DNA from: Escherichia coli O157:H7
GTDB lineage: Bacteria > Pseudomonadota > Gammaproteobacteria > Enterobacterales > Enterobacteriaceae
Direction: 5' to 3' (one strand)
NCBI RefSeq assembly: GCF_013167455.1
Contig: NZ_CP038328.1
DNA length: 64,000 nt
A program made the position numbers. This document shows, piece after piece, positions 53,145-54,020 of this stretch. The stretch's first letter is position 1. Each line of letters begins with the position of its first letter.

Positions 53145-54020
53145 TGAAATCCCTCCCGGATCAGACTCATCAGTGTGACTATCCGGTAGAGGTAAATTAC
53201 TCCAGAGTAATGGGATACAGTAAGGTAAGTGACTGGAATGGTGAAGGTACAAAGGCATACTTCAGATAGAAATTGCGTACTGAATCGTCTAAGGCATGAA
53301 CAATGAGCGCACGAACCCCTACCTGTTGAGCTATGGACATTGTGCGATAGACTGCATCTTTCAACAATGCGACGCCCAACCCTTTACCTGCCCAGGCTTG
53401 ATCAATTGCCAGTCTGCCTAATACGACAACAGGCAACGATTCGGGAGCATTACGTCGCATGGCTCCAGGGGCCAAATTACGTTGAATACTGCCTGTAGAA
53501 AGGCAGTAATAGCCGATTACCTGGCGGGTATTGGCAATACAGATAACGTAAACACGAGACAGACCGGAGCTGTGATTTTTTAACGCTTTCTTTTTTAGCC
53601 ATTCATTCATCCCGTGATCGGAACAGCAAAAGTCAGCCAGATTATGTTCAGACGTTAGGGGAGTAGGAGCCGTTATTCCCATGGCGATTTACGATTCATC
53701 AACGCGTTAATTTTGGCCTGACGCTCAGCAGTGATGGGGGCGTCCAGGGCAGCGAGAAACGCATCGTATTGCTCGTCATCAAGGATGAATAGTCGTTGAT
53801 CTAATAAGATGTCTTGCGCTTCACGGCATGCGGCATCCAGCATAAAATCAGTGCGCGATTTTGCGACCAGATTCGCTGCCATATCAATCAGGTCACGCTG
53901 TGAGGCTTTCGCTCTGATATTGATTGGCGCTTCTTTGCTTTCCGGTTTCATATTCATGAGCCTGTAGTGCGATTTTATATACAGTATAAAGAGTGTACAT
54001 AAAAACGCTATACAAACTCA

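What the first reader, a model, noticed from the sequence alone, without database searches (positions are those of the whole stretch)
53197..53957. Second GNAT/DUF1778 toxin-antitoxin pair (TacAT-like) between rtcA and malT
A 94-aa DUF1778-type ORF overlaps by 10 bp a 161-aa GNAT ORF (VVLGRLAIDQAWAGKGLGVALL), both on the minus strand, directly downstream of malT and convergent with rtcA. The toxin resembles Salmonella TacT-type toxins more than the ataT-like gene at 4540..5067 does. I do not recall genes at this position in K-12, so it is probably another accessory insertion, and it lies next to the RtcBA RNA-repair operon.
Basis: partly seen in the sequence, partly recalled or inferred. Interest (0 to 1): 0.5.

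Follow-up and report, generated by a model that had tools for sequence, protein, structure and literature searches.

The report
Known AtaR2–AtaT2 toxin–antitoxin module

Summary
Window 22044–64000 is base-for-base identical to E. coli O157:H7 Sakai. The two ORFs map exactly onto ECs_4261/ECs_4262, the published ataR2–ataT2 module (Ovchinnikov 2020, PMC7470980). That paper's cloning primers match the window exactly, catalytic Tyr139 is present, and both proteins are 100% identical to chains of PDB 7F37. Published work shows that AtaT2 is toxic, is neutralised by AtaR2 in a T2:R4 complex, and acetylates Gly-tRNAGly only. New here: 394 of 5426 complete E. coli genomes carry the module, always between rtcA and malT. 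About 889 nt (46% GC) replaces about 48 nt of the empty site, with no transposon scars. The nearest relatives (74–78% identity) sit in four unrelated contexts, two of them between traD and traT on F-like plasmids, so the proximity to rtcBA is incidental. A nested palindrome upstream of the antitoxin travels with the cassette and is the probable operator. The glycine-free antitoxin is not a general property of the family. The annotated and crystallised antitoxin has 92 aa, not 94. Interest is low.

The parts
53197..53682 (-). ataT2 (ECs_4262): 161-aa GNAT toxin, a Gly-tRNAGly N-acetyltransferase. The acetyl-CoA loop is AWAGKGLG and the catalytic Tyr is Tyr139.
   Evidence: ORF. 161/161 identical to PDB 7F37_B. 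Published primers AtaT2-F and AtaT2-R match 53662-53682 and 53197-53226 exactly. Tyr139 is present. Maps onto Sakai ECs_4262 with 0 mismatches.
53673..53951 (-). ataR2 (ECs_4261): 92-aa DUF1778/TacA1 ribbon-helix-helix antitoxin with no glycine.
   Evidence: Pfam PF08681 E=1.2e-19. 92/92 identical to PDB 7F37_C. The AtaR2-F primer matches 53929-53951. RefSeq CDS is 279 nt. Homologues are exactly 92 aa with the same 10-bp overlap. Gly count is 0.
53957..54021 (-). Probable promoter/operator: a large imperfect palindrome filling the malT-ataR2 spacer. The conserved core runs 54014..53962 (TGTATAGC ... ATGTACA ... TGTATATA ... CACTACAG). A sigma-70-like -35 TGTACA lies at 53999..53994 and a -10 TAAAAT at 53977..53972.
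   Evidence: Inverted repeat I1 has 27-nt arms at 78% complementarity. The fold is -27.5 kcal/mol, z=-6.6, with 0 of 200 shuffles folding as well. The motif TGTGTAGC..ATACA..TGTATA..GCTACACA is conserved upstream of the antitoxin in 5 unrelated genomic contexts, while sequence further upstream is unrelated. Function is inferred, not shown.
53152..53192 (.). Hairpin (CCCGGAT...ATCCGG) between the convergent rtcA and ataT2 stop codons. It may be a bidirectional transcription stop. Its stem matches the hairpin in the K-12 malT-rtcA spacer.
   Evidence: Inverted repeat I19. Fold is -17.2 kcal/mol, z=-2.4 on the + strand and -16.6 kcal/mol, z=-1.5 on the - strand. Compared with K-12 and the L003 empty site. 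There is no U-tract and the terminator scan did not call it.
53125..54013 (.). The segment that differs from empty-site E. coli genomes. About 889 nt replaces about 48 nt. It includes the last codons of rtcA, the hairpin, ataT2, ataR2 and the operator.
   Evidence: Alignment to K-12 and to the closest empty-site genome, L003. Homology ends at ...CGCGGGTGA (53124) and resumes at AAACTCACACCCC (54014). GC is 46.2% against about 54% in the flanks.
53132..53140 (+). Left copy of the 9-nt exact direct repeat CAAACTCAC. The right copy is at 54013-54021, across the malT stop codon. This may be recombination microhomology or chance.
   Evidence: Family D11. By my own estimate, about 2 exact 9-mers are expected by chance in a 1-kb region, so the repeat is not significant on its own.

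Best explanation
This is the chromosomal type II toxin-antitoxin operon ataR2-ataT2 of E. coli O157:H7.

Shown by others for this exact sequence:
- The blocked Gly-tRNAGly cannot take part in translation (why was not tested; the published ppGpp result means only that uncharged tRNA does not build up), so ribosomes stall at all four Gly codons and growth stops.
- Peptidyl-tRNA hydrolase can reverse the damage.
- AtaR2 binds AtaT2 in a T2:R4 heterohexamer and neutralises it. Because AtaR2 contains no glycine, it can still be translated while the toxin is active.

Inferred here:
- The RHH N-terminus of AtaR2, alone or in the complex, binds the conserved nested palindrome that overlaps the promoter at 53957-54021 and autorepresses the operon, as documented for KacA-KacT, AtaR-AtaT and TacA-TacT.
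- The minimal cassette (operator plus two genes, about 0.82 kb, low GC) was acquired horizontally in the O157:H7/O55:H7 lineage and a few others. It entered between the convergent malT and rtcA genes by a replacement that left no transposon scars.
- Its position next to rtcBA is incidental.

Its physiological role (addiction, anti-addiction, stress or phage response) remains unknown.
For: Identity:
- Window 22044-64000 equals Sakai NC_002695.2 with 0 mismatches in 41,957 nt. The ORFs map onto ECs_4261/ECs_4262, the locus tags given for ataRT2 in PMC7470980.
- Three cloning primers and T7-ataR2-R match exactly.
- PDB 7F37 chains B and C are 100% identical to the two proteins. The deposited chain counts are 2 toxin and 4 antitoxin.

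Mechanism (published):
- Toxicity is abolished by Y139A or by co-expressing AtaR2. The complex runs at 99 kDa, consistent with T2:R4. Ribo-seq and toeprinting show stalling at Gly codons. MALDI shows a +42 Da shift on Gly-tRNAGly that Pth reverses. ppGpp is not induced.
- In vivo LC/MS shows Gly-tRNAGly is the only species acetylated, reaching 70-80%.

Operator inference:
- The palindrome is conserved in 5 unrelated contexts and is strong. It overlaps a sigma-70-like promoter.
- There is family precedent for palindromic operators and autoregulation.

Accessory and mobile status:
- 394/5426 genomes carry it, always at this locus. K-12 has an empty site.
- GC is 46% against 54% in the flanks.
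- Relatives occur on F-like plasmids and in other chromosomal islands.
Against: Nothing contradicts the identification.

Weak points:
- No DNA-binding, transcript or promoter data for ataRT2 were found, so autoregulation and the promoter assignment are inferences.
- The direction of the event (gain in phylogroup-E-like lineages or loss elsewhere) is inferred from rarity, low GC and mobile relatives, not from a phylogeny.
- I could not retrieve the paper describing 7F37. The neutralisation geometry for this pair therefore rests on the deposited chain counts and on size-exclusion chromatography only.
- The NCBIfam library has no specific model for either protein.
- The Pfam GNAT hits are weak (E about 1e-4). 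This is typical of this toxin clade, since solved GNAT toxins match at E down to 7e-44.
Confidence: 0.97

Rival explanations
1. Functional coupling to its neighbours. Under this reading the module is placed beside rtcBA (RNA repair) or downstream of malT for a reason. For example, AtaT2-induced ribosome stalling could feed the Rtc response, or malT read-through could drive ataRT2 expression.
For: ataR2 starts only 66 nt after the malT stop codon, on the same strand. The palindrome in between has no U-tract, so read-through is conceivable. The module is fixed at this locus in all 394 carrier genomes.
Against: The nearest relatives (74-78% identity, same cassette) lie in four different contexts. 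None has rtc or malT within 6 kb on either side. A constant position within E. coli is what a single acquisition followed by vertical descent would produce. AtaT2 makes N-acetyl-Gly-tRNA, which peptidyl-tRNA hydrolase repairs. From general knowledge, the RtcB ligase and RtcA cyclase do not act on that product. The cassette carries its own conserved promoter region.
Confidence: 0.05
2. Anti-addiction role. Under this reading the chromosomal copy persists because AtaR2 cross-neutralises closely related toxins carried on plasmids, protecting the host from post-segregational killing.
For: Homologous cassettes sit between traD and traT of F-like plasmids in Salmonella and Yersinia. Their antitoxins are 82-86% identical to AtaR2. 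Thousands of enterobacterial plasmids carry relatives, up to about 73% identity at full length. The idea was proposed in the literature for AtaRT/AtaRT2 (Jurenas 2017, as cited).
Against: No cross-neutralisation data exist for AtaR2. The AtaT2 authors consider the idea insufficient to explain why the toxin gene is retained. The toxin-binding residues of related pairs are reported to differ (PMC9431474). This rival concerns the biological role. It does not conflict with the mechanism given above.
Confidence: 0.15
3. An ordinary housekeeping GNAT acetyltransferase with a small regulator, or an inactive remnant, rather than a working toxin-antitoxin pair.
For: RefSeq names the two only 'GNAT family N-acetyltransferase' and 'DUF1778 domain-containing protein'. 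The Pfam GNAT hits are weak.
Against: Genes cloned from Sakai DNA, with which the window is base-for-base identical across this locus, kill E. coli. They are neutralised by the antitoxin and acetylate Gly-tRNAGly. Both reading frames are intact and Tyr139 is present.
Confidence: 0.01

Closest known systems
AtaR2-AtaT2 (ECs4261-ECs4262) of E. coli O157:H7 str. Sakai; PDB 7F37; Ovchinnikov et al. 2020, NAR 48:8617 (PMC7470980)
   Same: Identical at every level tested. The DNA has 0 mismatches to Sakai. Both proteins are 100% identical to the crystallised chains. The primers, locus tags, Tyr139 and the glycine-free antitoxin all match.
   Different: Nothing; this is the same module.
TacA-TacT (and TacAT3) of Salmonella Typhimurium; PDB 5FVJ, 7F36, 7AK8, 7ZG6
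   Same: Same clade of GNAT toxins, clade D in PMC9177977. Both are specific for Gly-tRNAGly in vivo and have a DUF1778/TacA1 antitoxin. Toxin identity is 44.7% at E=7e-44. The antitoxin matches at E=4.8e-21.
   Different: It is a different gene at a different chromosomal locus in a different species, with under 50% identity. TacT-mediated acetylation of TacA has been described, but this has not been examined for AtaR2.
AtaR-AtaT of E. coli O157:H7 (ECs4308-4307; PDB 6GTS, 6AJM), also in this window at 4267..5067, and KacA-KacT of Klebsiella
   Same: Same family and operon architecture, the same T2:R4 heterohexamer, and a palindromic operator bound by the RHH antitoxin.
   Different: It belongs to a distant clade: about 29% identity according to the paper, and 34% in a local alignment here. 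AtaT has broad specificity (Met-tRNAfMet, Gly, Trp, Tyr, Phe), whereas AtaT2 acetylates Gly-tRNAGly only. AtaR contains two glycines.
Plasmid-borne KacT3-type cassettes (Klebsiella, Enterobacter, Citrobacter) and traD-traT cassettes on Salmonella and Yersinia F-like plasmids
   Same: The same 92-aa and 160-aa genes with a 10-bp overlap, and the same upstream nested palindrome. Toxin identity is 65-78% and antitoxin identity 82-89%.
   Different: They are plasmid-borne and mobile, and their substrate specificity has not been characterised. The E. coli copy is chromosomal and fixed at a single locus.

Membership tests
AtaR2-AtaT2 (the specific published module) | Sequence identity to the cloned and crystallised genes at locus ECs4261-ECs4262, between malT and rtcA in O157:H7 Sakai | tested here: met
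   0 mismatches to NC_002695.2 over 41,957 nt, with the ORFs mapping onto ECs_4261/4262. 100% identity to PDB 7F37 chains B and C. Published primers match exactly.
GNAT/DUF1778 type II toxin-antitoxin systems (TacAT/AtaRT/KacAT family) | The toxin is a GNAT-fold acetyltransferase with an acetyl-CoA-binding loop and a catalytic tyrosine | tested here: met
   Pfam Acetyltransf_7/_1/_10 at E=1e-4 to 1e-3. Solved GNAT toxins match: TacT at 7e-44, AtaT at 5e-20, KacT at 7e-18. The AWAGKGLG loop and Tyr139 are in the sequence.
GNAT/DUF1778 type II toxin-antitoxin systems (TacAT/AtaRT/KacAT family) | The antitoxin is a DUF1778/TacA1 ribbon-helix-helix protein encoded immediately upstream in the same operon | tested here: met
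   PF08681 TacA1 at E=1.2e-19. It matches the solved TacA/AtaR-type antitoxin chains in 7ZG6, 7AK7 and 6AJM. The antitoxin comes first and overlaps the toxin gene by 10 bp.
GNAT/DUF1778 type II toxin-antitoxin systems (TacAT/AtaRT/KacAT family) | The toxin arrests growth, and the cognate antitoxin neutralises it by direct binding | not testable with these tools
   Published for this exact sequence: pBAD toxicity, rescue by AtaR2, an inactive Y139A mutant, co-purification, and a 99-kDa complex (PMC7470980).
GNAT/DUF1778 type II toxin-antitoxin systems (TacAT/AtaRT/KacAT family) | [quoted passage not shown] | not testable with these tools
   Published: a +42 Da shift on Gly-tRNAGly that Pth reverses, and stalling at Gly codons by Ribo-seq and toeprinting. 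In vivo LC/MS shows Gly-tRNAGly only.
GNAT/DUF1778 type II toxin-antitoxin systems (TacAT/AtaRT/KacAT family) | Negative autoregulation through antitoxin or complex binding to a palindromic operator in its own promoter | tested here: inconclusive
   A strong palindrome (z=-6.6) overlaps a sigma-70-like promoter and is conserved with the cassette in 5 unrelated contexts. No binding or expression data for ataRT2 were found.
Known anti-phage defence systems (PADLOC-DB v2) | Either protein matches a defence-system model | tested here: not met
   No family at E<=0.01 for either protein.
Transposon-, IS- or integrase-borne cargo | Terminal inverted repeats, a target-site duplication, or an adjacent recombinase | tested here: not met
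   There are no flanking inverted repeats or recombinase ORFs. The event replaces about 48 nt with about 889 nt. The 9-nt direct repeat CAAACTCAC does not sit as a duplication of the empty-site sequence and is within chance expectation.

The most novel reading that the evidence does not exclude
The chromosomal AtaR2 may act as an anti-addiction factor against the closely related cassettes (antitoxins 82-86% identical) embedded between traD and traT of F-like conjugative plasmids. Alternatively, malT read-through may link ataRT2 expression to maltodextrin signalling. Either would give this orphan chromosomal module a defined physiological role. Neither is excluded by the evidence, and neither is supported beyond sequence similarity or adjacency.
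Probability: 0.12. Interest if true: 0.35.

Novelty: already known. Interest (0 to 1): 0.07.

Why it matters
It matters little as a discovery. The module's toxicity, neutralisation, target (Gly-tRNAGly), in vivo specificity and crystal structure have been published since 2020-2022.

The value of this check is mainly negative. It keeps a known system from being flagged as new, and it removes the suggestion of a link to the RtcBA RNA-repair operon.

Four small additions may help people working on GNAT toxins:
- The exact boundaries and the replacement nature of the insertion.
- Its frequency, 7% of complete E. coli genomes, always at one locus.
- A conserved candidate operator that moves with the cassette.
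- The finding that the 'striking' lack of glycine in AtaR2 comes from losing a single, otherwise conserved glycine in a family that is glycine-poor anyway.

Tried and rejected
1. Glycine-free antitoxins as a clade-wide signature of Gly-specific GNAT toxins. AtaR2, four 82-89% identical relatives and the TacA fragment all lack Gly. Among 119 diverse DUF1778 representatives (42-60% identity) only 14 have no Gly, and pooled Gly content is 1.8%. In 92 of the 119 there is a conserved Gly where AtaR2 has Ala30. I rejected this as a general rule.

2. Linkage to rtcBA or malT beyond E. coli. It is absent in the Pectobacterium, Serratia, Salmonella-plasmid and Yersinia-plasmid contexts.

3. Transposon-type insertion. 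There is no target-site duplication, inverted repeat or recombinase, and the 9-nt repeat is within chance expectation.

4. Conservation downstream of the toxin stop codon. There is none, so the rtcA-proximal hairpin is not part of the mobile cassette.

5. Known defence-system models (PADLOC). No hits.

6. NCBIfam has no specific model. The only hit is a sub-threshold GNAT match at 16.7 bits against a cutoff of 171.

7. Rfam. Nothing in or near the locus.

8. Finding the paper behind PDB 7F37. A full-text search for '7F37' returned only irrelevant papers, and the Cell Reports 2021 TacT paper is not held. My recollection that 7F36 and 7F37 belong to that paper is unverified.

Full report
**Observation**

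The six-frame ORF list shows a 161-aa ORF at 53197..53682 (-) and a 94-aa ORF at 53673..53957 (-). They overlap by 10 bp. They lie between rtcA (52119..53147, +) and malT (54018..56723, -). The pair is co-oriented with malT and 66 nt downstream of it, and convergent with rtcA, with 49 nt between the two stop codons. The description is therefore accurate.

One correction concerns the antitoxin start. RefSeq, the crystallised chain, the published cloning primer and four homologues of exactly 92 aa all use the second ATG at 53951. The protein is 92 aa, not 94.

**Identity**

- The antitoxin matches Pfam TacA1/DUF1778 (PF08681) at E=1.2e-19.
- The toxin gives weak GNAT hits in Pfam (E about 1e-4).
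- The toxin gives strong hits to solved GNAT toxins: TacT 5FVJ/7F36 at E=7e-44, AtaT at about 5e-20 and KacT at about 1e-17.
- PDB entry 7F37 contains chains 100% identical to both proteins, 161/161 and 92/92 residues. It holds two toxin chains and four antitoxin chains.
- In the Sakai RefSeq record, ECs_4261 (279 nt) and ECs_4262 (486 nt) lie between malT (ECs_4260) and rtcA (ECs_4263).
- Window 22044-64000 is identical to that record with 0 mismatches in 41,957 nt. The two ORFs map exactly onto those genes.
- The paper's primers AtaT2-F, AtaT2-R, AtaR2-F and T7-ataR2-R match the window exactly.
- Tyr139, the catalytic residue the authors mutated, is present.

The feature is therefore AtaR2-AtaT2 itself.

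**Mechanism: what is shown and what is inferred**

The following is published for this exact sequence.

- AtaT2 expression kills E. coli BW25113. The Y139A mutant and co-expression with AtaR2 are harmless.
- The two proteins co-purify as a complex of about 99 kDa, consistent with T2:R4.
- AtaT2 plus acetyl-CoA blocks in vitro translation.
- Ribo-seq and toeprinting show ribosome stalling at all four Gly codons.
- ppGpp is not induced.
- In vivo LC/MS shows that Gly-tRNAGly is the only species acetylated, reaching 70-80% (PMC9177977).
- AtaR2 has no glycine, and AtaT2 does not inhibit its translation in vitro. I confirmed 0 Gly in AtaR2 and 11 in AtaT2.

Autoregulation is my inference. The 66-nt malT-ataR2 spacer is almost entirely one imperfect palindrome:

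- Its arms are 53957-53983 and 53994-54020, 27 nt each and 78% complementary.
- It folds at -27.5 kcal/mol with z=-6.6.
- It overlaps a sigma-70-like promoter, with -35 TGTACA at 53999-53994 and -10 TAAAAT at 53977-53972.

Binding of palindromic operators by the RHH antitoxin or the hexamer is documented for KacAT, AtaRT and TacAT (PMC6698736).

- The gene at 4540..5067 is AtaT. It matches PDB 6GTS over all 175 residues at 392 bits. AtaR lies at 4267..4533.
- AtaT2 is closer to TacT (152.9 bits, 44.7% identity) than AtaT is (47 bits, 30.1%).
- K-12 MG1655 has only a 42-bp malT-rtcA spacer.
- The 870-bp interval occurs in 394 of 5426 complete E. coli genomes. It is always chromosomal and single-copy, at 95-100% identity, mostly in O157:H7, O55:H7, O145 and a few others.
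- A query with 500-bp flanks recovers the same 394 genomes. The sampled remaining genomes show rtcA and malT adjacent (a ~1.03-kb span), apart from a few with rtc deletions. The module is therefore accessory and fixed at this one locus.

**Anatomy of the insertion**

I compared the window with K-12 and with the closest empty-site genome (L003, flanks 97% identical). Homology ends at window 53124 and resumes at 54014.

About 889 nt replaces about 48 nt. The replaced stretch includes the last rtcA codons, so RtcA ends ...VMITKLTD* here instead of ...VSIE*.

A hairpin with the same CCGGAT/ATCCGG stem persists next to rtcA. I found no terminal inverted repeats, recombinase or clean target duplication. 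The 9-nt direct repeat CAAACTCAC at both edges is within chance expectation.

GC content is 46.2%, against about 54% for rtcBA and malT.

**Relatives elsewhere**

There is a gap in toxin identity between 99% within E. coli and at most 78% elsewhere. The nearest relatives lie in four unrelated settings:

- a Pectobacterium chromosomal island beside a sugar ABC transporter;
- a Serratia chromosome, between sulfur-transport genes and the ter operon;
- F-like plasmids of Salmonella and of Yersinia, between traD and traT.

None has rtc or malT nearby. All keep the 92-aa and 160-aa genes with the 10-bp overlap.

The sequence upstream of the antitoxin is unrelated among them except for a block of about 52 nt, TGTGTAGC...ATACA...TGTATA...GCTACACA. 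In the window this block begins at 54014, which is exactly where homology to empty-site genomes resumes. There is no conservation downstream of the toxin stop codon.

The mobile unit is therefore operator plus two genes, and the adjacency to rtcBA is incidental. Thousands of enterobacterial plasmids carry relatives, up to about 73% identity at full length. This includes the Klebsiella KacT3 type described in PMC9431474.

**An idea tested and rejected**

All five close antitoxins and the TacA fragment lack glycine. I therefore asked whether this is a general signature of Gly-specific toxins. It is not.

- Of 119 diverse DUF1778 representatives (42-60% identity), only 14 lack Gly.
- The family is Gly-poor overall, at 1.8%.
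- 92 of the 119 have a conserved Gly at the position of AtaR2 Ala30.

AtaR2's lack of glycine thus comes from losing one usually conserved residue. This tempers the weight of the published remark without contradicting it.

**Other checks**

There are no PADLOC defence models for either protein, no specific NCBIfam model, and no Rfam family at the locus.

**Verdict**

Interest is low. The only open question is its physiological role, which sequence analysis cannot settle.

Noticed in passing
window 4267..4533 (+) and 4540..5067 (+): The first GNAT pair in the window is AtaR-AtaT (ECs4308-4307). The toxin matches PDB 6GTS over all 175 residues at 392 bits. It sits between livJ (2957..4117) and a 127-aa convergent GNAT-like ORF (5064..5447), which I recognise from memory as panZ/yhhK.
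   Followed up: partly
window 4947..4990 (+): The mutagenic primers listed as 'AtaT2-Y139A-F/R' in Supplementary Table S1 of PMC7470980 do not match ataT2. Their two halves match the ataT gene on either side of the Tyr144 codon (TAT changed to GCT). The table appears to list AtaT-Y144A primers, probably a clerical error in the supplement.
   Followed up: yes
window 53125..53147 (+): In module-bearing genomes rtcA has a different 3' end, four codons longer (...[11 protein letters not shown] against ...VTRVSIE* in K-12 and the closest empty-site strain). The insertion event therefore rewrote the RtcA C-terminus. The consequence for RtcA is unknown.
   Followed up: partly
L001 1967..3554 (strain PV15-279); window 49103..50701: rtcR is annotated as frameshifted in O157:H7 strain PV15-279. 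It is an intact 532-aa ORF in this window and in Sakai.
   Followed up: no
window 21674..21738 (+) and 45323..45365 (+): Rfam gathering-threshold hits: RyhB sRNA at 83 bits and ES036 (CssrF) sRNA at 39.3 bits, just above its threshold.
   Followed up: no
window 27081..30407 and 42107..45235: The Sakai annotation, mapped onto the window, shows a DprA-like 'DNA processing chain A' gene (ECs_4280) next to a helicase pseudogene (ECs_4281) between yhgN and gntU. It also shows a three-gene ABC-transporter/membrane cluster (ECs_4270-4272) between glpD and glgP. From memory these are further accessory segments relative to K-12, but I did not check that.
   Followed up: no
L007 2669..5102 (Pectobacterium): In one Pectobacterium genome the homologous cassette lies beside a reverse transcriptase (RVT_1) paired with an STM3845-family gene, which looks retron-like. 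A HicB-like gene (faint Pfam hit) and a SymE toxin gene are also there. This suggests a variable defence/toxin-antitoxin islet that other strains lack at the same site (L005, L006).
   Followed up: no
L011 and L012 5732..6483 (Salmonella and Yersinia plasmid contigs): AtaRT2-like cassettes (toxin 76-78% identical, antitoxin 82-86%) are inserted on the opposite strand between traD and traT, inside F-like transfer operons. This is an unusual position for a plasmid addiction module.
   Followed up: partly
window 54018..54020: The malT stop codon is TGA here and in the closest empty-site strain, but TAA in K-12. MalT also differs from K-12 at two residues near the C-terminus (A/D and K/Q).
   Followed up: no
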